Shown: positions 2,912 through 64,000 of the stretch, piece after piece | Layout of the letters: each line of letters begins with the position of its first letter | How positions within the stretch are numbered: position 1 is the first letter of the stretch | From: an uncultured virus (IMG/VR IMGVR_UViG_3300021431_000098) | Taxonomy: Duplodnaviria; Heunggongvirae; Uroviricota; Caudoviricetes; Crassvirales | Reading direction: 5' to 3' (one strand) | Length of the DNA stretch: 64,000 nucleotides | Virus record (IMG/VR): IMGVR_UViG_3300021431_000098 | Program-made: the position numbers and the translations under genes | The notes under the pieces: generated by a model | What the model was told of the DNA's origin: nothing | What the model saw: the letters and a program-made list of their open reading frames with translations, nothing else | Database searches by the model: none

Positions 2912-2961
2912 AAAAACAACATCCTACATCTCTTTACGGGGGAGTGTAGGATGCTGTTTTT
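2912..2961 (-). terminator. intrinsic terminator hairpin whose loop is a copy of the TTTACGGGGG motif
   Basis: AAAAACAACATCCTACA / TGTAGGATGCTGTTTTT arms (1 mismatch) flanked by A/T runs. Confidence 0.65.
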
Positions 2962-2995
2962 ATATTTTTAGTTTATTCTTCATCATAAAAACCTT

Positions 2996-7926: not shown

Positions 7927-9162
7927 TTAATCAAGTAACACATCAGAAGCACTAGTAGCTTTAGGCTTAGCAATTTTAACTTGGCTACGAGTTTTATTCT
8001 TTTTGGAATTAATAACAAGTTTTCTTACTTGTTCTTCCTTAATAGCCATATTAACCAAGCTATCATAACTATTGCCTGTAAACATCAACCAAGCATCGAG
8101 AAGTTCTCTATTTAAATGTGCTTCGTTACTAAGGTTACTTAAATCTTTTTGGTATCCAGTTATTGCATTTCCATCTTCATCTTGTTCACTACTTCTAGAA
8201 ACATAATCATAGAAATCATTGAGAGTAAGAGTTACTTTCTGACCATTTCTCTCTGCTACGAATGTTTCAGGAAGCATGTAGTTTCCAATCTTTCTATTCT
8301 TAATAGCGTTATCAACACTATTCCAATATTCATTAAGTTCAGCAAGCTCTTGTTCTCTAGCTTGTTCAGCTCTTTGTTCAATCTCTTCACGAATTTGTTT
8401 ATCGTGAGCAACAAGAGCATCCAATTGACTCTTAGCAGTATCATAAAGTCTACCACTAGTTTTTAAGAAGTCAATATAAGCTTCATCCATAGAAGCATTA
8501 CCAAATTCCTCAGCAGCCATTCTAATAACTGCGGCAAGTTGATTTTCATTATCCTTGTCAAGAACAATTCCACTTCTATCAGGAATTTCACCAAAACCAC
8601 GAGGAGTACCAGTTATCTTAACATAATCAATAAATTGTTTAAGCATAGGATTATCCATAAACAATTTATTAACTGCACCTTCTGCAACTTCATTAGTTTT
8701 AGTAGCAATTACAGAATCAACATAATCTTTTACACCTTGAGGAGTGTCAGGAAAATCAATTTCATTTCCATTTTCATCCTTTACATCAATTCCAATTGCT
8801 TCTTTAATAGAACCAAGAGTAATCTCTTCATCCTCATCAGTAGGTTTATTTTCTTCAAGAAATTGTTTTACATCCTTAGCTTCTTTAAAAACATTACCGT
8901 CTTTGTCAACAATATCACCATTATCGGCAACAGTATAACTAACACCGTCAATTTCAATCTCAGTGCCAGCTTCTAGCCCACTATCATTATTTTCTTCTAC
9001 GGGGGGAGTGTCAGGAGTTCTAGTAAGGTCTGTAGTTTCATTAGTTTTATCATCATGAATATCTACAGGAGTATTATCTACTTTAACTCCATCGCCAGAC
9101 TTTACACCCTCACTACTAGTTGTAGTAGTAGGATTGCCTTCAAAATCAATATCTACATCCAT
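7927..9162 (-). CDS. putative scaffolding protein (crAss gene77-like)
   Basis: Very acidic N-terminus, coiled coil, immediately upstream of MCP. Confidence 0.7.
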   Translation of the reverse strand: MDVDIDFEGNPTTTTSSEGVKSGDGVKVDNTPVDIHDDKTNETTDLTRTPDTPPVEENNDSGLEAGTEIEIDGVSYTVADNGDIVDKDGNVFKEAKDVKQFLEENKPTDEDEEITLGSIKEAIGIDVKDENGNEIDFPDTPQGVKDYVDSVIATKTNEVAEGAVNKLFMDNPMLKQFIDYVKITGTPRGFGEIPDRSGIVLDKDNENQLAAVIRMAAEEFGNASMDEAYIDFLKTSGRLYDTAKSQLDALVAHDKQIREEIEQRAEQAREQELAELNEYWNSVDNAIKNRKIGNYMLPETFVAERNGQKVTLTLNDFYDYVSRSSEQDEDGNAITGYQKDLSNLSNEAHLNRELLDAWLMFTGNSYDSLVNMAIKEEQVRKLVINSKKNKTRSQVKIAKPKATSASDVLLD

Positions 9163-9531: not shown

Positions 9532-9831
9532 CTAAATACACAACATTATTAACAACATTCCGGTAAGAGTTCCAGTCATACCGTATATTACATCTTTAAT
9601 TTCATAAGAATGTCCTTTATGAACTTCATCATATAATTCTTTTAGATAAACTATAGCAATTGAAATTATTGTAATTATTATTATCCCCCCGTAAGAAAGA
9701 TGATGAGATACTTTAATTACTGCACACATTACTTCAACCAATAACAATCCAAATATATAATGTAATAGTTTATCTTTTTCTATTTCAACAACAGCATTAA
9801 ATATCTTTTGAATTATTTTCTTTACCTTCAT
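9532..9831 (-). CDS. small multi-TM membrane protein (VanZ-like)
   Basis: DKLLHY..., KELYDE..., D-x4-G; three hydrophobic segments. Confidence 0.55.
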   Translation of the reverse strand: MKVKKIIQKIFNAVVEIEKDKLLHYIFGLLLVEVMCAVIKVSHHLSYGGIIIITIISIAIVYLKELYDEVHKGHSYEIKDVIYGMTGTLTGMLLIMLCI

Positions 9832-18271: not shown

Positions 18272-18645
18272 TATAACAAACTTATTATCAATAGCACTAG
18301 TAACAATCCGCTAGTTCCAAACGCTATATTTCTTTGTAATTCAACTTTAGTTAAAGTATTATTATAAACTACTTCATTATGTTCAATAGTATTACGTAAA
18401 TCAGCGATAACAATAGAATCGTTATATAGAACCTCTCTAAGACTTTGATTAATTTGTTTCTCATAATCTAACTCAACCATTTTAGCATTTGCAACCTTAA
18501 GCAATTCTATTGGAATACAAATAGTATCGGATTGTAACTCCCCCATAAGAGAAATAGTTGGAGTCCTATTTGTTTGACACCAACTTGTAGAATAACTTAA
18601 CAGTGCTATCGTTATCAAGATTATATATTTCAATGATTTTCTCAT
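18271..18645 (-). CDS. putative spanin (signal peptide, coiled coil, C-terminal TM)
   Basis: N-terminal hydrophobic signal ending near Cys, C-terminal TM; overlaps 18566..18838, next to the endolysin. Confidence 0.55.
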   Translation of the reverse strand: MRKSLKYIILITIALLSYSTSWCQTNRTPTISLMGELQSDTICIPIELLKVANAKMVELDYEKQINQSLREVLYNDSIVIADLRNTIEHNEVVYNNTLTKVELQRNIAFGTSGLLLVLLIISLL

Positions 18646-18838
18646 TCTTAATACTATCTAATTCATTAATTTCATTTATAAGACTATCTCGTGTTATTAA
18701 TAGTTCATTTATCTCATTTCTTCTTACGGGGGAGGTATCATCAAGTACCTTTAGTGTATATAAAACTATTAATATATAAAGTATTGCACCTATTACTATT
18801 ATAGGATGATTTTTAATATCAATCCAAATCTTCTTCAT
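18566..18838 (-). CDS. putative inner-membrane spanin
   Basis: N-terminal TM followed by coiled coil, downstream of the endolysin. Confidence 0.55.
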   Translation of the reverse strand: MKKIWIDIKNHPIIVIGAILYILIVLYTLKVLDDTSPVRRNEINELLITRDSLINEINELDSIKNEKIIEIYNLDNDSTVKLFYKLVSNK

Positions 18839-21514: not shown

Positions 21515-21519
21515 TATTA

Positions 21520-21567
21520 TTCTTTTTACAGGGGGAGTGTATTCCAACTCCCCCGTAAAGAAGATAT
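21520..21567 (-). promoter_or_regulatory. inverted-repeat element built from two GGGGG motifs (homologous to 48965-49031)
   Basis: Minus strand ATATCTTCTTTACGGGGGAGTTGGAATACACTCCCCCTGTAAAAAGAA. Confidence 0.7.
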
Positions 21568-21573
21568 TAGCAA

Positions 21574-41395: not shown

Positions 41396-41830
41396 ATGGA
41401 CTTAGAATGGTTGAAGGGTTACACCTCCCCCGTAGAAGAAAATGAGATATATAATTCTCTTTATACTCTTGATTTTAATAAATGGTTTATAAATCAAATT
41501 AAAGTATTTCTTAATTGTAGTAGAGTCATGAAATGTGGACAAAGAGTAATCCAAACTAATGACCCTAGATATAAAGATGAAATGTCTATAACTGTAAAAA
41601 GTATTGAAAGAAATATTGATGAACAATATAAAGAGAAATATTTTAATATATTAAAATTAAGACATGAATTAAATTTAAGATATGAATCTAAACATGGTCT
41701 TGATTATGAAATAAAGAAAAAGAAACAAATTAAAACTAAATCTAAAAAGGTTGTTAAACGTAAAGAGTCTAAACAAACGGCTATACCTTTAGATATAGAT
41801 TTAAGTAAATTAAACTTTATATTGAATTAA
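41396..41830 (+). CDS. hypothetical protein
   Basis: 144 aa. Confidence 0.7.
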   Translation: MDLEWLKGYTSPVEENEIYNSLYTLDFNKWFINQIKVFLNCSRVMKCGQRVIQTNDPRYKDEMSITVKSIERNIDEQYKEKYFNILKLRHELNLRYESKHGLDYEIKKKKQIKTKSKKVVKRKESKQTAIPLDIDLSKLNFILN

Positions 41831-48962: not shown

Positions 48963-48964
48963 TC

Positions 48965-49031
48965 ATATCTTCTTTACGGGGGATTGGGAATACAACTTAT
49001 AGTGCTTATTCCTATCCCCCTGTAAAGAGAA
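48965..49031 (+). promoter_or_regulatory. inverted-repeat element built from two GGGGG motifs (homologous to 21520-21567)
   Basis: ATATCTTCTTTACGGGGGATTGGGAATACA...TATTCCTATCCCCCTGTAAAGAGAA. Confidence 0.7.
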
Positions 49032-49132
49032 TTGTGGATAATCTTGTTGATGGAGATTAATGTATTTACTTGGCAGTATATAAATATATTATAATGTGAT
49101 AGAAGCTAATGTATATCAGAGAGTTATGATGT

Positions 49133-49213
49133 AAAAATTAGGTCTATTAAACCAAATTTAACTTTTATTAAGATTAAAAATTGGGTGTAATAGACCAAAT
49201 TTTTGTATTTTTG
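49133..49213 (+). promoter_or_regulatory. 27-bp inverted repeat abutting a -7 element (TATTTTTG 49206-13)
   Basis: AAAAATTAGGTCTATTAAACCAAATTT versus the reverse complement of 49178-49204, 3 mismatches. Confidence 0.6.
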
Positions 49214-50647: not shown

Positions 50648-50990
50648 TTTTGTAAAAAGAATGATTGTTGAACACAAAGAACTTTGTGAAAAGATTGACA
50701 AACTTAATGAAGTTGTATATAACGATGAGAATCCTATTCATAAACAAACTAATAAGTATGATTACGCTAATATGTGTATGCAACTTATGAGTATGAAGAA
50801 TTATGCTAAGGCTCTTGAGTGTCGTCTTAACAATCAAGGTATTTATATTGATGCCGATTGTGATTATGTACAGAAACTTAAAGTAGATGCTCCTAAAGTT
50901 GTAGATTACTTTGTTGCTGTAGATTTGGCATCCCCCGTAGAGAAGAATAATGATAGACCTCATAATGATGACGTTGACATGAAAAAATGA
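50640..50990 (+). CDS. hypothetical protein (common phage two-helix family)
   Basis: RM..E..EL..KI.KL...QL..M..Y...L..R. Confidence 0.7.
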   Translation: MNDFVKRMIVEHKELCEKIDKLNEVVYNDENPIHKQTNKYDYANMCMQLMSMKNYAKALECRLNNQGIYIDADCDYVQKLKVDAPKVVDYFVAVDLASPVEKNNDRPHNDDVDMKK

Positions 50991-51529: not shown

Positions 51530-51702
51530 TGATTGGATTTGTTAGATTGGAGTTGAAATTGGAGTGTAAAATGGCTGAGAATGCCGATATTATCTTCTTT
51601 ACGAGGGTTTTACATTCCAAGTGGATAGTTAATCCCGAATGAAATTTTAACACGAAAATAATGATTTTGAAAAATATAAAAATTTTTGATTAATAAGAGT
51701 AT

Positions 51703-52976: not shown

Positions 52977-55900
52977 TTAATCACTTATCCATTCTGCTAT
53001 ACTTTGTGTAGGAATAACTGTTAAAGCTGTTTCTCCAAGTTTATAATATTTATTATTTTTATCAAGTCTACTTAACATATTAATAGAATGATATAGAGGA
53101 ATGTTTCGCATTAATTTAACTTTAACTTTATTTTCTCCAGCATACAAACCTGAAGTATAAGTTGCATCAAATTCATCACCTTGAATGATATATTGTGATA
53201 TAAGACCCATAGTATTCAATAAATCACCAGCCCCAGACATAGCAGCAACAGGAGATGACCAAAGTTTTCTAGCTTCACTAGCAGCACCAAAAGGATTGTA
53301 CATAAAACTTTCAGCAGCAAGTCTATCTGATTCATAAATCATAAAGTTATACAAGAAACCTTTATCATCGTTATCATCAGCAATACATTGAATTGCAACA
53401 CTAAGACAGATAGCAGCGAGAACACCATAAATATCTCCCATAGCTCTACGAATATTTGCTTTATCATATTCACTCATACTATCTTTATAAAGTCTATAAT
53501 GAGTAAAGAAATCAATATAAGTTTTGAATATATTTTGAATCCCTTTAACATTTTGCAATTCACTATCAGTCATTCCAGTATCTTTCTGAAGTTTTTTAAC
53601 ATAATTTCTATTTCGTAATGGCATTGCTAAAAAGTCTATTAATGATTGATAAGCACCTTTTTCTACAGTACCTCTTTCCTCATTATAATAACCTATTCTT
53701 CTATAGCGTTTCATAATACCAGGATAGATATGTTTATGATATTGCATAAGCAAACTTCCATACCAAAATTTTTCAAGTTGTGCAGCATCTAATTTACCAT
53801 AGTTACCATGAATCTTTTTATTAATACTTATAACACGTTGTTTAAATTGTCCTAAAAGCTTATAAGCATCAGCTCCCATAGATTCTAGTTTACCGCCTTG
53901 TTTAAATTCCATAATTCCATTTTCACCAAGAACTAATTCGCTACGAAGAGTTGGATGCAATTCATCATTTTCAAAATCTATTTTAGCTTGCTTAATATAT
54001 TCCTCACGTTTTTGATTATACTCTTTAAGCCTATCTTTAAGATATATTTGACTAAATTTAGCAGCTAAATCTTCTCTAAAATCAGTATAGTTAACTTTAC
54101 TATTATCGTTTCTTAATTCATATGTTTTAAATTCTTCCCACAACTTCTTTTCTTTTTCATCAAGCATACTTTCAAGCACAATATAAGAAGAATCTCTAAC
54201 AACTTCAGCTAAATTTTTATATTCATATTTAGGTTTTCCGTTTATTTTCCAATCAGCATTGAAATAAAGTCTATGAGAAGCTAAAGCACCAAACAATCCA
54301 GCACCTATTTGCATAAGATGTTCACCCATGTGAAGAGGACTATATTCGAAATCTCTAATCTTTTGCAAAGTATCTTCCAAATCAGGAGTTCTAACAACAC
54401 CTTCTAGTTCACCATAATCAAGTACATTAAAGAATTTAGCGATAGCAGATTGAACTGTAGTTGCTTTATCTTTATAAGAATCAGCAGCATAACTTGCCAT
54501 TCCAAGAGCATAATCTTGTAAACCTTTATGTATTGCCTTATATGGAAGAACGTCTCTAGCAGCACCTTCTGCAATAATTTGATATTTACCAACTAAAACG
54601 TTAGCAACACCGCCTGTTATATTAAATGTCATAAACTTAGCAGAAGTAAGAGATTGAACAATATTAGCAGCTTTTATAAGACCTGGATTAGTTTCTTCTT
54701 TATATTGGTCATATAGATAACGTCTAAACCAGTTTTGAAATTGATTTATTAATTGTGTATCTTCAGTTTCTATAACTCCATGCTTATCTCTTTTAAGTTT
54801 TTTAGACATTAATACTCTTTTTTTAGATTGCATAGATTTCAACATCTCTATTGCAAAGAAACCTAAATACTTTTCTTCTTGCTTAGCATTAAAATGACAC
54901 ATATTAAGAATGAAATTATCCATAACATCTTTCCAATTATCATCTATTTGCCCAGCATGAATTTCTTTTCTTTTAGCTTCTTGTTCTCTACGTTTACGTC
55001 TATTTTCTAAAAGTAAATTGTAGTAGTCTTTATCACTCATCCCATTTTCTTTTACGGGGGTGGTATAATCAATCTCAGGAGTTTCATTAGTGACAAGCCA
55101 TTCTAGTAAAGGAAGTCCTGTTACATCATCATGAGCATAATCAATATTTTCTCTAAATTCTTTAGAACTTGTTGACATATCAACCCAACCAACAAGTTTA
55201 CCTAATTCTTTAGCAACTTTTTTACCAGTTAATTCTTCTTTCTTTCTCTGAGCAGGAAGATGATTATTGTTCATCCATTTAATTCCACTATCCAAATGAA
55301 TAAGTTCTTGCATAGTTTTTAAAATAAGATTTTTAAGTCTTATTTCATATTCATTAGGATTGTAATCAGGATTTGAATAATCTTTAGTATCAGTATATCT
55401 AGAATTAGGTGTTTCTAGTTTTTTACCCCCTTTTTTAAAGTTATTGATAGTATATCCATATTTATGGTCATGATTAGTCATGTCTTTAGAACCATCTGGA
55501 TTGCCATAGACATCTTTACCGTCTTTAGGTCTTCTACTTTTTTGAGCATAAGCTGGTTCATATTGATATGTAGAAACCCAATCACCATTATTAGTAGTAT
55601 ATCCAAGAGCAAGATAAGTCCAACAATCAACAGGTACCGTAGTATGAGTATGAGGATTGTAAATATGATTAGCATCATACCAATCTTGATAATTCTTATC
55701 AGCATTAGGATTACCTGCAGCTCTTTCCTCTTCTCTTAAAGCTATACGTCTACGAAGTTCAGCAGTATAATAAGGAGTTTCTAAAGTTCTAGTATGTTCT
55801 TTTATGGTTTTGAGGGCTTCAGTTCTTTGCTTATCTACAAATTTATGATAATTTTTAGCACTAGGAACACAATAACCGAAAATATAATGATTTATAGTGT

Positions 55901-58900
55901 TAATGCCATTTCTATTTTCAATCATTAATTCCATCCATTTTTTATAATAGCCAGGCTCTCTCTTATTTCTTTCTCTAGCAAGTTCAGCTTGTTGATTATA
56001 AAGTTTAGTGTTAACTTTAAATTCAACATTATCTTCTATGAATTTTTTAACTTCTTCTTTCTTTTCTTCAGAAGCATCACCTGTTTTTAACTCATCTAAT
56101 TGAGAATATAATAGTATAAGACTGTCAATATCTTCTTCAGACAATAAAGCAGTTTCTATTATATTTTCTTGACTATTCCAATATTTAGAGAGGATTTTAT
56201 TAATTTCAGTAACTGTTTCATAATATTCACCAGACTTATTTTGGTTAGTACGCATACCATTGTAAAAGTCATCGTTGAACACATCATCACTTTTTATGCC
56301 ATTACTAATTAAACTTCTATCTGAAAATTGGCTATCTTCAAATATTCCATAACGAAGAGCTTGATAATTCTTTACTTTAGCAATTTGTTCAGCTGTAAGT
56401 TTAGTAGCATCTATAAAACCTTTATCATCTCTAGCTTTTGCAGTTCTAGCTATATTAAATAATACACTACGACCTTTTTTCTGCTGATTGAAAACACTAA
56501 AAGCATCACTAACTTTTTGTTGTATTTCAGGTTTAGCTCTGTAAGAAGCATTATATGCTAGCCATTCTTTAGACTCAGCATAATCTGGATGGTTCTCTAA
56601 TAAAGTTTCTATAGGAGTTATAAGATTTCCATTTCTATCATATTTTTCATAAGTTCTGATAACTTTTAGATGTTTATCTAATTCTGCGTCAAAAGTTTCA
56701 TTAGTATCATAAGTATAGTATTTGTCATTCAAAGCACGCATACCATTTATATAGGTTAGTAATGCGTTAGTAGCTTCTAAAGAGAATAATACTGCTTTTT
56801 CTCCTGTAAGACCATTTTCTTCTCTTAAGAAATCTGCAACATCATCTTGATTTAAAGCAACTTTCTTTACAATAGTATGATTCTCTATATCAGTATAATA
56901 TTCAGTTGTAAGATTATCTATTTCTTGATTAATTCTATCCAATTTAGCTTTGTTAGCATCATCAAGTTTTCCATTTCTTTGAAATTCTAATATATCCCTA
57001 CGTTGTTTTTCTAGTTGTTTGTACATTGAAAACACTTTTTTGTAAGGAGAATAAAGAATTTCTGCTATAAGTTCTACTTCTTTTTGATAATAATCATCTT
57101 TTAAAACTTGATTAATATGATTTAATTTCCACTTTTTAAGGTTCAGTTGGGCTTCTAAATGTTGAATACTATTTTCACCATAAGTAGCAGCAGCTAAATC
57201 TTGAGCATCTACTAAATCATTGTAATCTTTTACAAATTGTTCAGAATGCTCTGTAATCCAATCACCGTTTTTAATTAAATGATTTATATCTACTGTATTG
57301 CCATTTCTATTAGCTTCAGCAACTATATCATCCCATTCTTTATCAAACTCTCTTCTTCTCTTAGAAGCAAGCATATCAACTGTATTTAAATTAGCTGTAA
57401 GTTCTTTTGCTACAAGTTGAACTAAAGAATTATTAGACTCTTGTAAATCATTAATCCAAGCCTCAATTCCAGATGTAGTTTGGAAACTATCTACAATAGT
57501 CATTATATTTTGCTTAAAACGTGGGTCATCTGATAAACTAGCAAGATAATCAGTTGCAAATCTTCTAAAAGCATTATTAATTCTAGTATAAGTATCTAAT
57601 CTATTAATATCATTTTGAATAGAATCAAGTTGCCTTTTAGTAGCTGGATTGTCACTAGTATGTTCAAACATAGCAATAGTTCTATATTCGTCAACTAGTC
57701 GTTTAGCGTCAAGTATAGTTTTAAGAAATCTAACTCTTTGAGCCTTATCTGTTTTTATAATAGCTAAACACTCATCAGAATCAATAGGAACCCAATTGCC
57801 ATTAGCATCTTCGATAAAATTATCTATTTCTGATATAAGACTACCAACTTTTTTATGAACATAGTTAGAAGTAATATTTATAACTTTGTCATAATTTATA
57901 GTAACAGAATCTACAGTTGCTTTAATGTCATCTTTCTTAAATTGGTCAGTAGCAGTTTTAGCTAATGGGTCATTTTCTGAAAAAGCCATGTTCTTAATAG
58001 TTTTAACACTACTAATACCAAAGTCTTTATCAGTTACTGTAGAGTGACGAACATTACTTGTAGTTTCTGATTCACTAGAAGGCTTTACAGTATATACAAA
58101 ATTTAAGTTATCTACAATACGTTTTTTACCTATTGTCTTATCATATTTGTTTAATGAATTAAGAACATTCATAAGATGTTCGTTAGGCTGAGTAGGAATA
58201 GTTCCTTTGTTTAAAGCATCTTTAAATCCTTTATCAAAATAGGCAAGTCTAACTTCATATTTTTCGTTATTAACATGAAATACACCAACTTGACCACGAC
58301 TAATATAATGAGTCAATAGAGGTTGAAAAACATAATAAACACTATTAGGATTATTCTTAAAAGCAGCAGCTGTATCTCTTTTTAATTTAGCTATAGTTTC
58401 AATATCACTAGCTCTGGGATTATCTAAAGTAGTAACAACGGTTGTTGTTTTAGTTGATATTCTTTCTTTTGCTTCTTTAGCTTCTTCTTCATATTGAGAT
58501 AATATATCTTGAATGTCAGGTGTTTCTTCAGTAATAATTTCTGCAACTACATCTTCATAGAAAGAAGAAGGATAAAACCTATTATTTACAGGATTTATAG
58601 ACAATTCAGAGTTTTCATTATTCTCAAGTTTATTAAGAGGATAAAGAACTAAACTTCCATCATCAACAGATTGTCTAATTCTATATAATGTATAATTATT
58701 TTCACCTGGAAATTTAAGAATAATATAGTCATTCGCAACATATCCTTTAGCTTTTTTATTAAAGTATGCAAGAGAATATTTTTCTACTAAATTCTTAAAA
58801 TTAGGATTAGAAGCACTTAAGTAAATAATATTGTATCTTGTTTTTACAAGGTCTGTAATAGTTATAGGCTCGCCATATTCATTAGATACAGTTTTATTAC

Positions 58901-61900
58901 TAACTGTGTGTCTTCTTATAGCAATAAGTTTTTCATAGTTGGCTCTTATAAAGTTTTCTCTAAAAGTTCTATAATCAATATATCGTTCACCTATTTTAGA
59001 GTTTATAACAAGTTCTTTTACATTATCAATAACACTCAAGCCATTATATATGGCTTCATTCTTTATTACTTTTCCAACTCCATTAGCAACAGTCTTGCCT
59101 CCATTTACAAGATAATGATATTTTATAATATCTATAGCAGCATCATGAATTAAAGGATTGTTATTGTTAAATGCTTTAGCAAATAATGAGTATATTTCCT
59201 CACTACTATTAGCATTTTCTTTATAAGTTAAACTATGTCTAAAATTATTATATTTATTGCCAATCAAATCAACATCAATGTATTCAAAAACACCTCTATG
59301 TTTAGCTCTTTGTTGTATAAAATATATCTTTTGAGCAGGAGAAAGATGCGACCATGTTTCTAGCTCATTTTTAGTAGGATGATTAATATCTTTACAAACA
59401 AAGTCTATATCTAGTGTGTCAAAACCATATACTCTTCTTTTTTCCTGTTCTAATATTTCATTAAACTCATCTATTTCTAATACTCTATTTTCTGCAATAT
59501 CAAATCTAACCAAATTACCTTCGCTATCAACAACAAAAGGTAAAGCTACATCAGATGCTCTTCTATAAAAATCTCCTAAAATATATTGAGTATAATCACT
59601 ATAATTAGAAGGAGTAAGTTTAGGACTTTCATCCTCTGTCATAGTAAAGCTATCATTCAAACTTCTAACTTCATTATCGAAATTAGTAGTTTTAGTAAGA
59701 AATAGTTCTTTATTAATTTTAATAGAAACAGCCGAAGCATATTTCATAAAATTATACATAGTAGGATAAGTAGAAATACCATCTGTAGAAAGAAATTCTT
59801 CGATAACTTCATCTGTTGTCATGTGATTACTATTCAAACCAGGATATACAGCACGAAGAAGATTAACAAAATTACCTTTAGTATCTTGAGCTTTCAATAA
59901 ACTTTCTTTTCTCTTAAGTATTTCTGTAATTTTATCAAATACTTGAGCAGTATCAAAAATGCTTTGTTTAGCACCAAACTTATCAGGATTTAAACAAGTA
60001 GCATATTCAGTTAAACCACTAGCTAAAGCATTAAGTTTGTTAAATTGTAATATAGTTATTAAATCTACAATATCATTGTCATCAACATTATTAAGTTTAT
60101 TATGGTATCTATCTTGAAGTAAATGAGATATTATAGGAATAACACTCATCTTACTTGGGTCAGTTGATAAAGTAGTATTAGCAACATCAACACCAAAAAG
60201 TCTTTCTATATTTTCTCTATAGGCGGATAGTATATTTGACAATAATGTATTTGTATCAGCTTTTTTAATATTTATATTTTTTCTTTTAGCTAATTCAATA
60301 CATTTTTCTTTAATAAATGCTTCAGTAGGATTGCCATAACTTACTTGATACGCAGAATTTCTACTATTATTTCTATTAACAAGTTCTGTAATAGCAGGTT
60401 GTACCATAAATGCTACAGAAGTCATATAATCAGAACCGATAGAAGGAAATAGTTTATATACAGGAAATGTAAAAGTATTAACATTAGGAATAATACCTTC
60501 TTTAATAGCATCAAGAATATGTGCAGTTGTTTGAGAACTATAAGAAGTTATAAGTTTTCCAACAACATTTTTGTTATTTTTAGACCAACCATATCTTTGA
60601 TGATGTACAACAAAGCATTTATCTCCATTTATTGTTTTAACTTCATATTCTGTTTTATCATACATCGATTCTATATCTTCTTGCTTATATCCATCTTTTT
60701 CGCGATATACAACAGTTATGATGTTATTTGGATTAACAATAGGTCTTGTAGTGTTACATACAGAACAGAAGCCATCCATAAAAACACTCATACCTTTAAG
60801 TTTAAGACCAGACATAGCATCAAAATGATATTCAAATTGGTCAAAAGGATTATATGTACAAGTGCTATTAGGCTTGACATTACCTGTAATCATTTCTCTT
60901 GCACTATAGTCTTCACCAGCGATATCTCTAAAATTAGAAGTACCAAATAATTCTTCAATAACTTCATCTGATTGAAGAATATCTATACAAGAATTGATAA
61001 TAGCATTTTCCAATACTTTTTCATCTAATGCTAACAATTCTTTTTCAGACATCGCTTCTAGTTCTTCCATAGTAGGAAATGGAATTCTAGTTATAACACC
61101 ATTCTCTACTTTAGAGTTAAAATTGATACCATAAATAGAGTCAATATCAAAGTCAGAACCAGTTTGAGCAACCCAACCATCAGGAACAACAATTGTAGAA
61201 CCATAGGCGTCGTCTATAAATCCTTTAATTTTCATTATAGAAATAGACTGTTTACCTTCAGTAGGAATACGATAACCTATAATTTTGTCAAGACCTGCAA
61301 TTTCTAATTCAGTACGAAGTTGCTCATCAGATTTCAAACTACCATCAATATTATATCTATTGAAATTAAAATTATTCTTAGGAAGAAGAATTTCTGTATA
61401 ACTAACTCTAGTAAATTTATTTCTATTTTCTTTTGACAATGCTTTATATTCTTCTTCGCTAATAACATTTCCTAAACTATCGGCATAAGCATTAGGATGA
61501 TATTCCAAATTAGAACTAACACCAATTTGACCATGATACTCATCATAGTATTTCTTTTCTTTAGCAGTAAGAGCTTTATATTCTTCTTTAGTTACAATAG
61601 TTTTAGCATTGTTTTGCTCGCCTAATTTGTTTCGTTTGTAAGTTGTAGTTTTATTCGCTTTAAAACCAATACTTGTCATCTGAGCAGCATGGAAACCAGG
61701 AAGCTTTTGTCTAGTTATTTTATTTTGAATAATACTTTGAGCAAGACTTTCAACTTTTATAGCTACTGTTACATCAAATAATGGCATATTAGTATCACCA
61801 GTATCAGGATTTATTTCAGTAAATGCTAACATATTACTGTCAAGTCCTGTTCTTTTCATTTCATTTCTTAATTCATCAAGAAATGCTTTTTTATCAAAAC

Positions 61901-64000
61901 CTACAATTCTTCCCTCATCAGTAAATTTAAGATTATTATTTTCATCTAATTCTACTCCAAATTTAGTAGCAGTAGTTATAAAAGCTTGCTTAATTTTAGC
62001 GCCATAAACTTTAAATATAATACCTTTTCTACGAAGATTTTCTGGGTCAGATAAATTGTCCAATACTTTCTTCATAAATTGAATACCAGCTTTATTTTTA
62101 GCATTCAAATGTTGAGGAGTATCCAACTGAGTATAAAGATAAGTATAATCAAACAATTCTATAGCATCAGAACCAGTATCAGCTATAGTTGCTTTAAACT
62201 TATTAAGATTAGCTTCTGTTAAAACACCATCATTATTCCAAAATGTAAGTACATTAGTTTTACCAGCTTTTGTAGTTTCCACAGTGTTGCATTGAGCAAT
62301 ATCAGCAGAATCCATAACTTCTGCTAAAATTTCTAATTCAGTACCACGAAGAAGTCTAGGTATTAAAACAAATTCTGCATTCTTAACTTGTCTAGGTGCA
62401 GTAATATGGCTTTCTGTATTAGTATTGTGGTCGTAATAAAAGTTCTTTTGAAGTTGAATAAATTCACGTACAATATCAGGAGTTAATTCTTGAGTTTCAT
62501 CATTTATTGCATCAATGAGAGGTTTATATTTATTTAATTCTCCTCTAAGAGCCACACGTCTTATAAATTCTTTGAATGTTATGAAAGATATAGCGTCATT
62601 AGCTTTAACTCTATCAAATGCTTCTGCTATATTATTAGCAACATTTTCACCATATTGTTTTTTAATCTTAGCATAAACATTGCCACCTTTCTGCATTGAA
62701 GCAACAGCATGAACAGAATTACTAATAGTAATACCTGTAAATGTTTTTCTTTGTTTTAACGTAAAACTAGAAACATTACCTGCACTATCTTTTACATTAA
62801 ATATAGTACTATTCAAAGGACTTTTTACATCGACATTATAGTCATCATCCAAATTAGCTTTATCAACTTTAGTTATATCAAAAGTTGGGTCAAAAATACC
62901 ATAACTGACACCACCTGCTTGTCCTTCTTTAGCTCTTTTAAAGAAATCTTGAGCATTTTTATAAAACTTACTATCACCCTCAACTAATTGGTCATAATTG
63001 ACATACATTAAATATGTATTAAGAGCCCATTCTGTAATATGTTCTTCATTAAATAACGAATTAGGAATAAATTCTTTATATTCCTGCATTTTATTTACAG
63101 AATAGTCAATAAATCTTTCTATAAACTTTTCAACATAAAAATCAATACATTCTTCTTGAGTCATTCTTGTTACAGTGCCGTCATCATTTCTATGTTCTAC
63201 TACTTTATCATCAGTAAATATCACATCAACACCTTTATCGGTAACTCTAGTATGAATGTACTTTCCTGTAGCACCCCCCGTAAGGAAATCAAATGCTTCT
63301 TTAAATAATTGCTCACCGAAGTTTTCTATCTCTATACCTTTTTCAGCAATACATAATTTATTACTTTTAAAACAATTACCAGTGAGAACCCAATTATCAT
63401 TTACTTTTTTAAGAATAGTTTTATCTTTATCGTTATAATGATAATTTGCATAAGCATTAGGACAGTCTTTACTATCAAACCAACCTTCTTTAAAAATAGG
63501 TTTATAGTCTTGACTAGAGTCACCTAATCTAACAATACCTGGAATTTCTTGTTCAAACATTACATACAAAGAATTAGCAATATCTGTTAATTCTTGCATT
63601 ATATTGTTCTTGTATTGTCTGAATATAGCGTGATTTTTATTTATTACTTTAGTTATAGCACCTTTTTTATACCCTTCCTCTATAATAAGATTATTTATGG
63701 TTCTATTCAAACTTTCTGGAATAGTTCTATCAGAAAGAATATAAACTTTATAATCTTTTAAATTTAAACTACTAGAATTACTATTGACAGGACCGTTATT
63801 AGAATTTCCAGCATAAAGAGTACCTTCAAGTACATATTCTAGTACATTACCATCAGGGTCAATATATTTTCTTCTAGTTCTTACAACATCGCCTAAATTA
63901 AAATATGGAGTATCAGAATATAATTCATTAAAAGCTACATTTCTTTGCTTTTTTATCATCGCTAAATCATCAACAACAATATCTCTTTGGTCAGAACCCC
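52977..64000 (-). CDS. giant virion-packaged RNA polymerase (two-barrel), 5'-truncated
   Basis: YRIPTEGKQS and catalytic GSDFDIDS (DFDID at 61140-61154); frame stays open to the window edge (>3670 aa). Confidence 0.92.
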   Translation of the reverse strand, partial: GSDQRDIVVDDLAMIKKQRNVAFNELYSDTPYFNLGDVVRTRRKYIDPDGNVLEYVLEGTLYAGNSNNGPVNSNSSSLNLKDYKVYILSDRTIPESLNRTINNLIIEEGYKKGAITKVINKNHAIFRQYKNNIMQELTDIANSLYVMFEQEIPGIVRLGDSSQDYKPIFKEGWFDSKDCPNAYANYHYNDKDKTILKKVNDNWVLTGNCFKSNKLCIAEKGIEIENFGEQLFKEAFDFLTGGATGKYIHTRVTDKGVDVIFTDDKVVEHRNDDGTVTRMTQEECIDFYVEKFIERFIDYSVNKMQEYKEFIPNSLFNEEHITEWALNTYLMYVNYDQLVEGDSKFYKNAQDFFKRAKEGQAGGVSYGIFDPTFDITKVDKANLDDDYNVDVKSPLNSTIFNVKDSAGNVSSFTLKQRKTFTGITISNSVHAVASMQKGGNVYAKIKKQYGENVANNIAEAFDRVKANDAISFITFKEFIRRVALRGELNKYKPLIDAINDETQELTPDIVREFIQLQKNFYYDHNTNTESHITAPRQVKNAEFVLIPRLLRGTELEILAEVMDSADIAQCNTVETTKAGKTNVLTFWNNDGVLTEANLNKFKATIADTGSDAIELFDYTYLYTQLDTPQHLNAKNKAGIQFMKKVLDNLSDPENLRRKGIIFKVYGAKIKQAFITTATKFGVELDENNNLKFTDEGRIVGFDKKAFLDELRNEMKRTGLDSNMLAFTEINPDTGDTNMPLFDVTVAIKVESLAQSIIQNKITRQKLPGFHAAQMTSIGFKANKTTTYKRNKLGEQNNAKTIVTKEEYKALTAKEKKYYDEYHGQIGVSSNLEYHPNAYADSLGNVISEEEYKALSKENRNKFTRVSYTEILLPKNNFNFNRYNIDGSLKSDEQLRTELEIAGLDKIIGYRIPTEGKQSISIMKIKGFIDDAYGSTIVVPDGWVAQTGSDFDIDSIYGINFNSKVENGVITRIPFPTMEELEAMSEKELLALDEKVLENAIINSCIDILQSDEVIEELFGTSNFRDIAGEDYSAREMITGNVKPNSTCTYNPFDQFEYHFDAMSGLKLKGMSVFMDGFCSVCNTTRPIVNPNNIITVVYREKDGYKQEDIESMYDKTEYEVKTINGDKCFVVHHQRYGWSKNNKNVVGKLITSYSSQTTAHILDAIKEGIIPNVNTFTFPVYKLFPSIGSDYMTSVAFMVQPAITELVNRNNSRNSAYQVSYGNPTEAFIKEKCIELAKRKNINIKKADTNTLLSNILSAYRENIERLFGVDVANTTLSTDPSKMSVIPIISHLLQDRYHNKLNNVDDNDIVDLITILQFNKLNALASGLTEYATCLNPDKFGAKQSIFDTAQVFDKITEILKRKESLLKAQDTKGNFVNLLRAVYPGLNSNHMTTDEVIEEFLSTDGISTYPTMYNFMKYASAVSIKINKELFLTKTTNFDNEVRSLNDSFTMTEDESPKLTPSNYSDYTQYILGDFYRRASDVALPFVVDSEGNLVRFDIAENRVLEIDEFNEILEQEKRRVYGFDTLDIDFVCKDINHPTKNELETWSHLSPAQKIYFIQQRAKHRGVFEYIDVDLIGNKYNNFRHSLTYKENANSSEEIYSLFAKAFNNNNPLIHDAAIDIIKYHYLVNGGKTVANGVGKVIKNEAIYNGLSVIDNVKELVINSKIGERYIDYRTFRENFIRANYEKLIAIRRHTVSNKTVSNEYGEPITITDLVKTRYNIIYLSASNPNFKNLVEKYSLAYFNKKAKGYVANDYIILKFPGENNYTLYRIRQSVDDGSLVLYPLNKLENNENSELSINPVNNRFYPSSFYEDVVAEIITEETPDIQDILSQYEEEAKEAKERISTKTTTVVTTLDNPRASDIETIAKLKRDTAAAFKNNPNSVYYVFQPLLTHYISRGQVGVFHVNNEKYEVRLAYFDKGFKDALNKGTIPTQPNEHLMNVLNSLNKYDKTIGKKRIVDNLNFVYTVKPSSESETTSNVRHSTVTDKDFGISSVKTIKNMAFSENDPLAKTATDQFKKDDIKATVDSVTINYDKVINITSNYVHKKVGSLISEIDNFIEDANGNWVPIDSDECLAIIKTDKAQRVRFLKTILDAKRLVDEYRTIAMFEHTSDNPATKRQLDSIQNDINRLDTYTRINNAFRRFATDYLASLSDDPRFKQNIMTIVDSFQTTSGIEAWINDLQESNNSLVQLVAKELTANLNTVDMLASKRRREFDKEWDDIVAEANRNGNTVDINHLIKNGDWITEHSEQFVKDYNDLVDAQDLAAATYGENSIQHLEAQLNLKKWKLNHINQVLKDDYYQKEVELIAEILYSPYKKVFSMYKQLEKQRRDILEFQRNGKLDDANKAKLDRINQEIDNLTTEYYTDIENHTIVKKVALNQDDVADFLREENGLTGEKAVLFSLEATNALLTYINGMRALNDKYYTYDTNETFDAELDKHLKVIRTYEKYDRNGNLITPIETLLENHPDYAESKEWLAYNASYRAKPEIQQKVSDAFSVFNQQKKGRSVLFNIARTAKARDDKGFIDATKLTAEQIAKVKNYQALRYGIFEDSQFSDRSLISNGIKSDDVFNDDFYNGMRTNQNKSGEYYETVTEINKILSKYWNSQENIIETALLSEEDIDSLILLYSQLDELKTGDASEEKKEEVKKFIEDNVEFKVNTKLYNQQAELARERNKREPGYYKKWMELMIENRNGINTINHYIFGYCVPSAKNYHKFVDKQRTEALKTIKEHTRTLETPYYTAELRRRIALREEERAAGNPNADKNYQDWYDANHIYNPHTHTTVPVDCWTYLALGYTTNNGDWVSTYQYEPAYAQKSRRPKDGKDVYGNPDGSKDMTNHDHKYGYTINNFKKGGKKLETPNSRYTDTKDYSNPDYNPNEYEIRLKNLILKTMQELIHLDSGIKWMNNNHLPAQRKKEELTGKKVAKELGKLVGWVDMSTSSKEFRENIDYAHDDVTGLPLLEWLVTNETPEIDYTTPVKENGMSDKDYYNLLLENRRKRREQEAKRKEIHAGQIDDNWKDVMDNFILNMCHFNAKQEEKYLGFFAIEMLKSMQSKKRVLMSKKLKRDKHGVIETEDTQLINQFQNWFRRYLYDQYKEETNPGLIKAANIVQSLTSAKFMTFNITGGVANVLVGKYQIIAEGAARDVLPYKAIHKGLQDYALGMASYAADSYKDKATTVQSAIAKFFNVLDYGELEGVVRTPDLEDTLQKIRDFEYSPLHMGEHLMQIGAGLFGALASHRLYFNADWKINGKPKYEYKNLAEVVRDSSYIVLESMLDEKEKKLWEEFKTYELRNDNSKVNYTDFREDLAAKFSQIYLKDRLKEYNQKREEYIKQAKIDFENDELHPTLRSELVLGENGIMEFKQGGKLESMGADAYKLLGQFKQRVISINKKIHGNYGKLDAAQLEKFWYGSLLMQYHKHIYPGIMKRYRRIGYYNEERGTVEKGAYQSLIDFLAMPLRNRNYVKKLQKDTGMTDSELQNVKGIQNIFKTYIDFFTHYRLYKDSMSEYDKANIRRAMGDIYGVLAAICLSVAIQCIADDNDDKGFLYNFMIYESDRLAAESFMYNPFGAASEARKLWSSPVAAMSGAGDLLNTMGLISQYIIQGDEFDATYTSGLYAGENKVKVKLMRNIPLYHSINMLSRLDKNNKYYKLGETALTVIPTQSIAEWISD

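What the first reader, a model, noticed from the sequence alone, without database searches (positions are those of the whole stretch)
2931..63288. Genome-wide dispersed TTCTTTACGGGGG motif under DNA-level selection: candidate unknown site-specific system
Seen: 14 exact TACGGGGG/CCCCCGTA copies (~2931, 8992, 9685, 18717, 21547, 27863, 31875, 35821, 40457, 41424, 48968, 50931, 55045, 63272), each preceded by a pyrimidine tract. There are also 3 TACAGGGGG variants (21520, 26440, 49014) and 3 degenerate copies (18540, 30628, 51591). A simple 30% GC model predicts about 0.2 copies of the 8-mer. By eye these account for most G5/C5 runs in the window. They lie in unrelated genes, on both strands and in different frames (PVEE/PVKE in scaffold, helicase-like and vRNAP; YGG in primase and the membrane gene; TGG/TGE in UDG, vRNAP and the secreted protein), so protein constraint cannot explain them. 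There is no strand polarity, unlike Chi or KOPS. Many occur as oppositely oriented neighbours (8992/9685, 18540/18717, 26440/27863, 30628/31875, 40457/41424, 50931/51591). Inference: binding sites for a phage protein acting across the genome (DNA organisation/looping, protection, packaging or ejection pausing, or self-marking).
Basis: partly seen in the sequence, partly recalled or inferred. Interest (0 to 1): 0.85.

Follow-up and report, generated by a model that had tools for sequence, protein, structure and literature searches.

The report
Strand-specific DNA signal in crAss-like phage
This gut crAss-like phage keeps about 20 copies of one 23-letter DNA word, evenly spaced on each strand and written straight through its genes; relatives including the prototype human crAssphage have their own spellings, and what reads the word is still unknown.

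Summary
The window holds 14 exact TACGGGGG, 3 TACAGGGGG, 1 TATGGGGG and 2 one-mismatch copies. These take 18 of its 22 G5 runs. Dinucleotide shuffles give 0.10 copies. Inside genes, 10 copies stand against 0.31 after synonymous-codon shuffling.

The word is about 23 nt: aaT-YYCYTCTAY-GGGGG-AGSTa. Five window sites sit at the same place and orientation in orthologous genes of 5-6 of 7 related genomes, at 30-62% protein identity. crAss002 keeps the primase site in another reading frame and spells the helicase site its own way. Selection therefore acts on the DNA.

Copies on one strand are regularly spaced and rarely under 2 kb apart. Copies on opposite strands are often 23-200 nt apart. Every Intestiviridae genome tested has a spelling, p-crAssphage with 31 copies. 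crAss001 has another word, CTTCTGGAG, 29 copies. The sampled Bacteroidales genomes show no enrichment.

My best reading, unproven (0.33), is a phage-private start signal for primer or strand synthesis. Rivals are a phage RNA-polymerase promoter, a private Chi-like mark and nick sites. Earlier notes of this scan report the same class on other crAss DNA. My limited searches found no paper describing it.

The parts
2926..2948 (+). Signal copy (CTCTTTACGGGGGAG), intergenic. It lies in the loop of a 17-bp hairpin between two - strand genes.
   Evidence: Fold of 2905-2975: -14.2 kcal/mol, z -7.6, core unpaired in the loop.
8989..9011 (+). Signal copy, antisense inside ORF 7927-9162(-).
   Evidence: No orthologous site in the same orientation in 7 relatives.
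9680..9702 (-). Signal copy, sense inside ORF 9532-9831(-).
18534..18556 (-). Signal copy, TATGGGGG variant, sense inside ORF 18271-18645(-). The site is ancient.
   Evidence: Orthologous site in the same orientation in 5 of 7 relatives.
18716..18738 (+). Signal copy, 184 nt from the - copy at 18544. It lies only in a 48-aa ORF, so it is probably non-coding.
21519..21541 (+). Signal copy, TACAGGGGG variant. It is the left arm of a convergent pair in the spacer 21515-21573.
   Evidence: Fold of 21505-21580: -13.0 kcal/mol, z -6.8.
21544..21566 (-). Signal copy, right arm of the same convergent pair.
26434..26456 (-). Signal copy, TACAGGGGG variant, antisense inside ORF 26314-26796(+).
27861..27883 (+). 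Signal copy, sense inside ORF 27784-28137(+).
   Evidence: Orthologous site in G005.
30625..30647 (-). Degenerate copy (CTTTACGGGCG) inside the RecD/Dda-like helicase gene 29957-31426(+).
31874..31896 (+). Signal copy, sense inside ORF 31698-32249(+), which is similar to the gene annotated uracil-DNA glycosylase in cr271_1. The site is ancient.
   Evidence: Same place and orientation in 5 of 7 relatives at 47-59% identity.
35817..35839 (-). Signal copy, antisense inside the helicase gene 35315-36733(+). The site is ancient.
   Evidence: Same place and orientation in 6 of 7 relatives. crAss002 has its own spelling there; G004 lost the site by substitutions.
40455..40477 (+). Signal copy, sense inside the primase gene 39633-40796(+). 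The site is ancient.
   Evidence: PHROG 12622 DNA primase, E 2.8e-60. Same place in 5 of 7 relatives. crAss002 holds it in another reading frame. p-crAssphage has a copy in its primase gene at 16627-16636.
41421..41443 (-). Signal copy, antisense, 35 nt into ORF 41396-41830(+).
48966..48988 (+). Signal copy, left arm of a convergent pair in the spacer 48963-49202.
   Evidence: Fold of 48955-49045: -16.0 kcal/mol, z -5.0. G005 has a like pair at 80981/81019 with a shared central sequence.
49010..49032 (-). Signal copy, TACAGGGGG variant, right arm of that pair.
50926..50948 (-). Signal copy, antisense inside ORF 50640-50990(+), which matches Pfam crAss001_48.
51591..51613 (+). Degenerate copy (CTTTACGAGGG).
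55044..55066 (+). Signal copy, antisense inside the giant virion RNA polymerase gene 52977-63959(-).
   Evidence: No orthologous site in 6 relatives with a homolog.
63269..63291 (-). Signal copy, sense inside the same gene. The site is ancient.
   Evidence: Same place and orientation in 5 of 7 relatives at 30-41% identity. The word is shifted by one base relative to the frame against cr271_1 (LTGGA versus LYGGA).
39633..40796 (+). Primase gene, a candidate reader. This is inference only.
   Evidence: PHROG 12622. Relatives' records call it a DnaG family primase. A review states that primase is the only replication gene universal in crAss-like phages (passage).
52977..63959 (-). Giant virion RNA polymerase gene (3660 aa), the alternative candidate reader. 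This is inference only.
   Evidence: DFDID motif at residue 936, the hallmark described for crAss-like vRNAPs (passages). No PHROG hit.

Best explanation
The TTCTTTACGGGGG copies are this phage's spelling of a ~23-nt asymmetric signal, 5'-aaT-YYCYTCTAY-GGGGG-AGSTa-3'. Intestiviridae crAss-like phages keep 14-31 copies per genome. The signal is maintained by selection on the DNA itself and is read one strand at a time by phage-encoded machinery.

The mechanism I think most likely is a fixed start signal for primer or strand synthesis on single-stranded template, read by the phage's own DnaG-family primase alone or with a partner. In this model the invariant 3' part (AY-GGGGG-AGST) anchors the enzyme. 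Synthesis starts at the T-A-Y junction and copies the ~10-nt pyrimidine tract into a purine-rich primer. A start is then guaranteed every 4-9 kb on whichever strand is exposed.

Shown: the word is real. Selection acts on the DNA. Sites are kept at orthologous places. Spelling differs by lineage. Spacing is regular per strand. The word is not enriched in the sampled host-order genomes. Sites are gained and lost by point substitution.

For: 1) Selection on DNA. In genes, 10 copies against 0.31 after synonymous shuffling; the same result in four relatives.
2) Orthologous places. Five window sites are kept at the same place and orientation in 5-6 of 7 genomes at 30-62% protein identity.
3) Frame independence. 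At the primase site crAss002 keeps the word in another frame (YPLRGN versus FYGGA). At the helicase site it keeps its own spelling (SPIKE versus TPVEE).
4) Reading by strand. Per-strand spacing is regular: window + strand CV 0.34, P=0.0014. At least one strand of cr271_1, G003, G004, crAss002 and ctcc615 reaches P<=0.003, as do p-crAssphage and Rudgehvirus. Same-strand pairs within 2 kb number 8 against 42 expected. Opposite-strand pairs within 200 nt number 15 against 4.2 expected.
5) A private word. TACGGGGG, TAYGGGGGA and CTTCTGGAG are no commoner than reversed controls in 3 + 41 + 16 sampled genomes.
6) Pyrimidine tract. Positions -9..-6 hold at most 9% A and 1% G (none from -8 on) while C and T interchange freely. 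That fits a constraint on the strand or its copy better than base-specific duplex contacts; this step is inference.
7) Hairpin loops. Two intergenic copies sit unpaired in the loop of strong hairpins: window 2905-2975, z -7.6, and G005, z -5.8.
8) Candidate reader. A primase is encoded and is reported as the one universally conserved replication gene of crAss-like phages (passage). The signal class reaches Steigviridae: crAss001 has 29 CTTCTGGAG against 2 for the control.
Against: 1) No primer, transcript or nick has been mapped. Only assembled contigs of public runs were available.
2) Known DnaG-type primases recognise about 3 nt, not 23 (recalled knowledge). I saw no CHC2 zinc-finger pattern in the primase sequence (by eye).
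3) Both strands carry sites over the whole genome with no switch by genome half. This was seen by eye in the p-crAssphage site list. Simple bidirectional replication from the origins predicted for p-crAssphage (passage) would not need that.
4) The T-A-Y junction is not invariant: about half of p-crAssphage copies read CAC, not TAC.
5) A stem between the pyrimidine tract and upstream purines is only weakly enriched: 4.48 against 3.8-4.0.
6) Spacings of 4-9 kb are longer than typical bacterial Okazaki fragments (recalled).
7) The distribution fits a Chi-like protective word at least as well.
8) Spacing is not significantly regular on some strands: cr271_1 -, G005 -, G004 -, ctcc615 -, crAss001 +.
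Confidence: 0.33

Rival explanations
1. The word is a private promoter for a phage-encoded RNA polymerase, the giant virion polymerase or an unknown factor. Transcription would start in the G-run, as T7-group promoters end in ...TATA|GGGAGA. The products could be primers, non-coding RNAs, or transcripts that help draw the genome into the cell.
For: The word is about 23 nt, asymmetric, and far more specific than needed to be absent from a host genome. Each lineage has its own spelling at the same genome places, which is the hallmark of T7/T3/SP6-type polymerase-promoter pairs (recalled). An invariant G-run sits where T7-like transcripts begin (recalled). A 3660-aa polymerase with DFDID is encoded. 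In cr271_1 two intergenic copies lie 37-50 nt upstream of the next gene in sense.
Against: Copies are as often antisense as sense: window 7 sense, 6 antisense, 5 intergenic; six genomes 53, 35 and 34. Ancient sites lie antisense inside the helicase gene in 7 genomes. Convergent pairs 23-42 nt apart would fire into each other. [quoted passage not shown] Free C/T interchange over positions -9, -8, -7, -6 and -4 is unusual for base-specific promoter contacts (inference).
Confidence: 0.2
2. The word is a private Chi-like self mark. A phage helicase-nuclease tracks along one strand, degrades DNA that lacks the word (host or competing phage) and is tamed when it meets the word in the right orientation.
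For: Both orientations occur over the whole genome, each regularly spaced and independent of gene direction. That layout keeps every break close to a correctly oriented site. Density is about 1 per 3-5 kb, similar to E. coli Chi (recalled). The word is absent from the sampled host-order genomes and spelled differently in each lineage, as a self/non-self mark should be. The window encodes a RecD/Dda-like helicase with exonuclease V hits (29957-31426), a PD-(D/E)XK-type exonuclease (19432-20418) and a Gam-like end-protection protein (45989-46723).
Against: Known Chi words are 5-8 nt and belong to the host (recalled); this one is about 23 nt. No RecBCD- or AddAB-like complex was identified. Segment boundaries between G001 and G003 are not clearly concentrated at sites: about 3 of 24 within 100 nt against about 1.4 expected, counted by eye. 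The strict pyrimidine tract has no role in this model.
Confidence: 0.14
3. The copies are sites of programmed single-strand interruptions (nicks) in virion or replicating DNA, as in T5 and in the phiKMV-like and tf-like phages.
For: The word is strand-specific, asymmetric and about 20 nt, and occurs inside genes. Nick consensus words of comparable length are known (recalled). Point-mutational gain and loss is compatible.
Against: In the known cases, as far as I recall, nicks lie on one strand; here both strands carry them about equally (9 + and 9 - in the window). Conserved opposite-strand pairs 23-111 nt apart would risk double-strand breaks. The p-crAssphage culture study searched for read ends and reports an excess only at the terminal region (passage); that is weak evidence. 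Nothing could be tested here because only contigs were available.
Confidence: 0.08
4. One reading: orientation-blind binding sites on duplex DNA for a phage protein that organises, loops, packages or pauses the genome, in the manner of uptake sequences.
For: Copies are dispersed on both strands, inside genes in all stop-free frames, and occur as inverted pairs forming hairpins in spacers. That layout resembles bacterial uptake sequences (recalled).
Against: If orientation did not matter, regular spacing should appear for all sites pooled. It appears per strand instead: window pooled CV 0.79, P=0.25, against + strand CV 0.34, P=0.0014. Opposite-strand copies cluster while same-strand copies repel each other. 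The proposed HU-like and RepL-like readers have no family support.
Confidence: 0.07
5. The pattern is an artefact: a shared peptide motif, codon bias, or a small mobile element that inserted many times.
For: Several copies encode similar peptides (PVEE, YGG).
Against: The synonymous-shuffle null gives 0.31 against 10. Five of 18 copies are intergenic. The same site is held in different frames in different phages. Gain and loss between G001 and G003 is by point substitution without insertion or deletion. GGG is the rarest glycine codon (53 of 1008), yet both YGG tripeptides are spelled TACGGGGGG.
Confidence: 0.01

Closest known systems
Promoter sets of phage single-subunit RNA polymerases (T7, T3, SP6, K11) (recalled)
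   Same: About 23 nt, asymmetric, with a G-run at one end. Private to the phage, spelled differently in each lineage and kept at the same genome places.
   Different: T7-type promoters all point with the genes and lie between them. Here copies are on both strands, half of them antisense and inside genes. No T7-like polymerase is present, and the crAss virion polymerase is of another kind.
Sequence-specific priming signals: T7 gp4 sites (GTC-based), phage G4 complementary-strand origin, RSF1010 ssiA/ssiB read by RepB', mitochondrial OriL (recalled)
   Same: Strand-specific and read on single-stranded template. Some are presented by hairpins. ssiA and ssiB sit on opposite strands close together. 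OriL starts in a pyrimidine (T) stretch of a loop.
   Different: Those signals are either very short and frequent, or occur once or twice per replicon at an origin. About 20-30 long private signals spread evenly over both strands of a dsDNA phage are, as far as I know, not described.
Chi sites of RecBCD/AddAB (recalled)
   Same: Orientation-dependent and read on one strand. About one per 4-5 kb, allowed inside genes, and acting as a mark of 'self'.
   Different: Chi is 5-8 nt and belongs to the host chromosome. This word is about 23 nt, is not enriched in the sampled Bacteroidales genomes, and differs between phage lineages.
DNA uptake sequences (USS of Haemophilus, DUS of Neisseria) (recalled)
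   Same: Both strands, evenly spread, written into genes in tolerated frames, and present as inverted pairs in terminator-like hairpins.
   Different: Uptake sequences belong to competent bacteria and are read on duplex DNA regardless of strand. Here the spacing is strand-specific.
Stoperators of cluster A mycobacteriophages (recalled)
   Same: 20-30 asymmetric sites dispersed over a phage genome.
   Different: Stoperators are 13 bp, lie in short spacers, are oriented with transcription and are bound by the prophage repressor. None of that holds here.
Nick-associated words of T5, phiKMV-like and tf-like phages (recalled)
   Same: Strand-specific dispersed words of 9-20 nt in a lytic phage genome.
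   Different: Few sites, on one strand as far as I recall. Here there are 18-31 sites on both strands, with close opposite-strand pairs.
Dispersed strand-specific words noted earlier by this scan in other crAss-like genomes (e1-5973293, e1-6065830, e1-5973300, e1-5842012, e1-6245700 and others; e1-6076863)
   Same: The same class: pyrimidine tract, TAY, G-run; about 10-30 copies; even spacing per strand; a private spelling per lineage. I re-tested these points on my own set of genomes.
   Different: This window is the Obtuvirinae-like spelling, with G5 and an AGGT/AGCT tail. Those notes are unchecked AI notes on other DNA, not publications.

Membership tests
Phage RNA-polymerase promoter set (T7-group type) | Sites lie upstream of genes and point in the direction of the genes. 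| tested here: not met
   Window: 7 sense, 6 antisense, 5 intergenic. Six genomes: 53, 35 and 34.
Phage RNA-polymerase promoter set (T7-group type) | The phage encodes its own RNA polymerase, and the word co-varies with lineage. | tested here: met
   A 3660-aa ORF carries DFDID. Spellings differ among the window, cr271_1, crAss002, p-crAssphage, Rudgehvirus and ctbg_1.
Phage RNA-polymerase promoter set (T7-group type) | Transcripts start at the site. | not testable with these tools
   No RNA run holds the phage, and only contigs were served.
Primase start sites / single-strand initiation signals | The replicon encodes a primase. | tested here: met
   ORF 39633-40796 matches PHROG 12622 DNA primase, E 2.8e-60. 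Records of relatives call it a DnaG family primase.
Primase start sites / single-strand initiation signals | The signal is strand-specific and each strand is served independently. | tested here: met
   Regular spacing per strand. Same-strand pairs within 2 kb: 8 against 42 expected. Opposite-strand pairs within 200 nt: 15 against 4.2 expected.
Primase start sites / single-strand initiation signals | A hairpin presents the signal, as in ssiA/ssiB, the G4 origin and OriL. | tested here: inconclusive
   Clear at window 2905-2975 and G005 35467. Over 139 sites the best upstream stem is only 4.48 nt against 3.8-4.0 in controls.
Primase start sites / single-strand initiation signals | A primer is made at the site. 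| not testable with these tools
   This needs biochemistry or nascent-strand mapping.
Chi (RecBCD/AddAB) | A short word (5-8 nt) over-represented in the host chromosome. | tested here: not met
   The word is about 23 nt. TACGGGGG and TAYGGGGGA are about equal to the reversed control in 3 + 41 sampled genomes. The true host is unknown.
Chi (RecBCD/AddAB) | Orientation-dependent, with both orientations available along the DNA. | tested here: met
   9 + and 9 - copies in the window, each set spaced regularly.
T5-type localized nicks | Interruptions are present in virion DNA at the word. | not testable with these tools
   Only assembled contigs were available. The 'places where many molecules begin or end' table was empty, and contigs cannot show ends.
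T5-type localized nicks | The sites lie on one strand. | tested here: not met
   Both strands carry sites in all 11 Intestiviridae sequences examined: the window and 10 genomes.
Stoperators (cluster A mycobacteriophages) | Sites lie in spacers and are oriented with transcription. | tested here: not met
   13 of 18 window copies lie inside ORFs, 6 of them antisense.
Small mobile elements (MITE/REP-like) | Copies arise by insertion, so they appear as presence/absence indels. | tested here: not met
   The G003-specific copies differ from G001 by 1 to about 5 substitutions within the word itself.
Dispersed strand-specific crAss signal (class noted by this scan) | Pyrimidine tract + TAY + G-run, tens of copies, per-strand even spacing, lineage-specific spelling at orthologous places. 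| tested here: met

The most novel reading that the evidence does not exclude
The word is a phage-private self mark, a long Chi-like signal read by a phage-encoded strand-tracking helicase-nuclease. The phage could then destroy host DNA and the DNA of competing crAss lineages, which spell the word differently, while sparing its own genome. Divergence of the spelling would be driven by conflict between phages.
Probability: 0.13. Interest if true: 0.95.

Novelty: new variant of a known kind. Interest (0 to 1): 0.76.

Why it matters
[quoted passage not shown] How they replicate and control their genomes is largely unknown. This signal constrains coding sequence in essential genes (primase, helicase, virion polymerase) across genera. 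It is present in the prototype crAssphage (31 copies). It is also present in three cultured phages: crAss002, Rudgehvirus jaberico and, as a different word, crAss001. It can therefore be tested at the bench now. Whichever reading is right, it would expose a core mechanism of this phage order. Possible answers are fixed priming sites, a two-strand promoter set or a private self mark. The word would also give a simple sequence marker for lineages. My searches found no description in print (and passages of three papers). Those searches are limited to the held library.

Tried and rejected
1) Read ends, nicks and expression. The one run search listed only Logan contigs and no RNA holder. The laid contigs of X2, X3, X4 and X6 cannot show molecule ends. 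The table of differences was cut (3424 rows not shown), so variation inside and outside the word could not be compared. No conclusion is drawn.

2) Host Chi or uptake word: rejected for the sampled genomes. The true host is unknown.

3) RNA hairpin (pyrimidines pairing with the G-run around a UACG loop). I considered this and then dropped it, because crAss002 uses TAT about as often as TAC and p-crAssphage uses CAC. No compensatory pattern was tested formally.

4) Shine-Dalgarno or start-codon signal. By eye, no start codon at a consistent distance and no ORF follows the copies in the listings.

5) IHF-like site (ATCAA upstream in G001 and G003). It was seen only in that lineage and was not pursued.

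6) Mosaic boundaries at sites. G001 versus G003 segment ends showed no clear excess near sites (counted by eye).

7) Upstream stem: only weakly enriched.

8) Reader identity. Pfam, NCBIfam and PHROGs gave nothing for the 'HU-like' and 'RepL-like' ORFs. The primase has no PDB relative by sequence.

9) My first self-BLAST and exact k-mer scans missed the crAss001 word. A one-mismatch neighbourhood scan found it.

Full report
**What is in the window.**
TACGGGGG occurs 14 times on both strands, against 0.10 expected from dinucleotide-preserving shuffles.
- TACAGGGGG occurs 3 times.
- One TATGGGGG and two one-mismatch copies lie at the stated places.
- Eighteen of the 22 G5+ runs of this 30% G+C window belong to the word.
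- The window is a crAss-like phage. It has a major head protein, portal, large terminase, primase, DNA polymerase, ligase, dUTPase and a Gam-like protein, and a 3660-aa ORF with the DFDID polymerase motif.
- Its nearest named relatives are cr271_1 and ctcc615 (Intestiviridae, Obtuvirinae), with only about 75% nucleotide identity over 11-12% of a 20-kb query.
- Public contigs holding it come from bovine and other gut metagenomes.

**The word itself.**
- I pooled 139 copies from seven genomes, leaving out G003 as a near-duplicate of G001.
- Information runs from about -12 to +10 around the first G: a/c, a, t, then a strict pyrimidine tract. Positions -9..-6 hold at most 9% A and 1% G (none from -8 on) and lie outside the selecting pattern.
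- The tract is followed by T-A-Y, G5, and A, G, C/G, T, a.
- An additional weak purine enrichment lies at -40..-20 (0.60-0.62 against 0.52).
- The window and G004 favour GGGGGAGGT. cr271_1, G001, G003 and G005 favour GGGGGAGCT(AG).

**Selection acts on the DNA.**
- Shuffling synonymous codons within each ORF of 60 aa or more leaves 0.31 copies on average (largest 2 of 300), against 10 observed.
- The same holds in cr271_1 (11 against 0.07), G001 (18 against 0.28), G004 (10 against 0.08) and G005 (11 against 0.21).
- GGG is the rarest glycine codon (53 of 1008), yet both YGG tripeptides of the window are spelled TACGGGGGG.
- By my reading of the consensus, only three of the six frames of the word are free of stop codons.

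**Sites are old.**
- Five window sites are at the same codon position and orientation in 5-6 of 7 other Intestiviridae genomes, although the proteins are only 30-62% identical.
- These sites lie in ORF 18271-18645, the UDG-like gene, the helicase, the primase and the virion polymerase.
- At the primase site crAss002 holds the word one base out of register: TAT CCT TTA CGG GGG AAT (YPLRGN), where the others have TTC TAC GGG GGA GCT (FYGGA).
- At the helicase site crAss002 has its own spelling (CCCCCATAAAGGAG, SPIKE) where the others read TPVEE.
- The two codons before TAC vary among all-pyrimidine codons: S, F, P and L.
- The DNA word therefore dictates the protein, not the reverse.

**Sites also turn over.**
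- G004 lost the helicase site and ctcc615 the primase site, both by substitutions.
- The two copies that G003 has and G001 lacks differ by 1 to about 5 substitutions within the word itself.
- The copies are therefore not insertions of a mobile element.
- crAss001's primase lacks the whole loop that carries the site.

**Distribution.**
- Relative to genes there is no polarity: window 7 sense, 6 antisense, 5 intergenic; six genomes 53, 35 and 34. These counts use a crude ORF call of 45 aa or more.
- Spacers are only about 6-8% of these genomes, so intergenic placement is roughly four-fold enriched. That is expected if spacers are the cheapest place to put a word.

| Sequence | Strand | CV of gaps | P |
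|---|---|---|---|
| window | + | 0.34 | 0.0014 |
| window | - | 0.49 | 0.039 |
| window | both pooled | 0.79 | 0.25 |
| cr271_1 | + | 0.43 | 0.0026 |
| G004 | + | 0.39 | 0.0004 |
| crAss002 | + | 0.40 | 0 of 5000 |
| crAss002 | - | 0.45 | 0.0018 |
| ctcc615 | + | 0.32 | 0.0002 |
| G003 | - | 0.43 | 0.0016 |

- The decisive feature is this per-strand spacing. I tested it after earlier notes of this scan suggested it; all values above are. Window + strand gaps run from 2.8 to 9.7 kb.
- Several minority strands are not significantly regular: cr271_1 -, G004 -, G005 -, ctcc615 -.
- Over eight genomes, same-strand pairs within 2 kb number 8 against 42 expected. Opposite-strand pairs within 200 nt number 15 against 4.2 expected. 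G001 and G003 are 93% identical over their longest aligned segment (80-95% across segments) and so are not independent.
- The opposite-strand pairs are convergent or divergent about equally and sit in spacers. There the two copies form long hairpins: window 21505-21580, z -6.8; window 48955-49045, z -5.0.
- The simplest reading is that each strand needs its own site and both use the same free space.
- Two other spacer copies lie unpaired in the loop of a strong hairpin: window 2905-2975, z -7.6; G005, z -5.8.

**How widespread it is.**
- Five such contigs hold 11-27 TACGGGGG, against 0-1 for the reversed control.

| Phage | Word | Copies |
|---|---|---|
| crAss002 (cultured) | cTCCTTTAYGGGGGAA | 31 of 35 G5 runs |
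| ctcc615 | local spelling | 18 of 20 G5 runs |
| Carjivirus communis (prototype crAssphage) | YCTYYACGGGG | 31 (13 +, 18 -); control 0 |
| Rudgehvirus jaberico (cultured) | YCTYTAC(N)GGGG | 26 |
| ctbg_1 | YCTYTACGGGCCAG | 14 |
| crAss001 (Steigviridae) | CTTCTGGAG | 29 (11 +, 18 -); control 2 |

- In the prototype crAssphage, per-strand CV is 0.43 (P=0.001) on the + strand and 0.31 (0 of 5000) on the - strand.
- crAss001 lacks the G5 word (0 ACGGGGG). Its own word is regularly spaced on the - strand (CV 0.46, P=0.0002) but not on the + strand (P=0.11).
- The G5 word is rare in three further records. phi14:2 has 1 ACGGGGG; cr127_1 (Crevaviridae) has 2 YYYTAYGGGG and cr108_1 has 1. I did not search those three for a word of their own.

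**Not a host word.**
It also hits two contigs that look like crAss-like phage DNA binned into 'Bacilli' MAGs.
- In three Bacteroidota MAGs, TACGGGGG (10, 102, 11) is no commoner than its reversed control (21, 137, 32).
- In 41 genomes of the same order, TAYGGGGGA tracks the control. None comes near the phage density of one per 3-5 kb.
- The same holds for crAss001's word in 16 genomes.
- The actual host is unknown, so this rejects a host genome-wide word only for the sample.

**What it is likely to do.**
- The facts call for a reader with four properties. It distinguishes the two strands. It needs a site every few kilobases on each. It is indifferent to genes. It changes its specificity between lineages, and so is probably phage-encoded.
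- I favour a start signal for primer or strand synthesis (0.33). Such signals are strand-specific and read on exposed single strands.
- The strict but C/T-free pyrimidine tract of about primer length is most easily understood as a template for a purine-rich primer.
- Hairpin loops would present the word.
- A review (passage) reports the primase as the only replication gene universal in crAss-like phages.
- Against it:
  - Nothing has been mapped.
  - Known DnaG-type primases read about three bases (recalled).
  - The T-A-Y junction is CAC in about half the p-crAssphage copies.
  - Sites cover both strands everywhere and do not switch by genome half.
- The rivals are given above with odds: a private promoter (0.20), a private Chi-like self mark (0.14), nick sites (0.08) and duplex architecture (0.07).
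- For the promoter, the paper on phi14:2 states that the virion polymerase transcribes single-stranded DNA and that its early transcripts share no upstream motif (passages of the bioRxiv version). This weighs against the simplest version.

**Comparison and novelty.**
- The signal works most like a promoter or priming signal in size and privacy. It is most like Chi or uptake sequences in layout. It fails a defining feature of each family I tested (see Membership tests).
- Earlier notes of this scan describe the same class on other crAss-like DNA. I re-tested their main claims on an independent set of genomes and they held.
- My literature searches and passages read in three papers found no description in print. 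Subscription journals and closed supplements were not visible.
- I rate it a new variant of a known kind, because my best reading is an initiation signal of an unusual, dispersed and private form. If the self-mark reading were right it would be categorically new.

**Limits.**
- ORF calls are mechanical.
- Some 'sense' or 'antisense' labels rest on small ORFs.
- P values come from 5000 random placements that ignore gene structure.
- G001 and G003 are close relatives.

Noticed in passing
window 25162-25228 (+): Rfam gathering-level match to the RAGATH-1 hammerhead ribozyme (RF03152, 57.5 bits, cut-off 56.3). It lies in the small-gene/tRNA region, next to tRNA-Leu 25771-25855, tRNA-Arg 28819-28894 and tRNA-Gln 28961-29032.
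   Followed up: no
MH675552.1 (crAss001), whole record; loci L168-L173: crAss001 lacks the G5 word but has 29 exact CTTCTGGAG (11 +, 18 -) against 2 for the reversed control. Spacing is regular on the - strand (CV 0.46, P=0.0002). The word is not enriched in 16 sampled Bacteroidales-order genomes.
   Followed up: partly
MN917146.1 (crAss002) near 4217, 47847, 86215; loci L158-L162: Three signal copies are followed 5-8 nt later by GGAGCGAAGCG(A/G). This holds GCGAAGC, which I recall as a very stable DNA mini-hairpin. These may be terminators sharing the spacer.
   Followed up: no
G009 contig C12 (93.7 kb) and G010 contigs C82, C124, C154, C168: Genomes labelled Bacilli / Coprovivens MAGs carry contigs with 25 and 18 copies of TACGGGGG (controls 1 and 3). 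These are probably crAss-like phage DNA binned into unrelated MAGs.
   Followed up: no
window 31431-31696: In contigs of runs X4 and X6 this 264-nt stretch (ORF 31426-31701) is replaced by 684 other letters. This is a strain-level gene swap next to the UDG-like gene (table 5).
   Followed up: no
window 40410-40480 (primase codons ~265-285): The primase segment that carries the signal is a loop missing from the crAss001 primase in the pairwise alignment. The word sits in a dispensable insertion of the protein.
   Followed up: partly
MH616963.1 (ctbg_1), loci L311-L315: This Intestiviridae genome replaces the G5 run by GGGCCAG (YCTYTACGGGCCAG, 14 copies, control 0). It shows a change of spelling within the family.
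   Followed up: partly
   Followed up: partly
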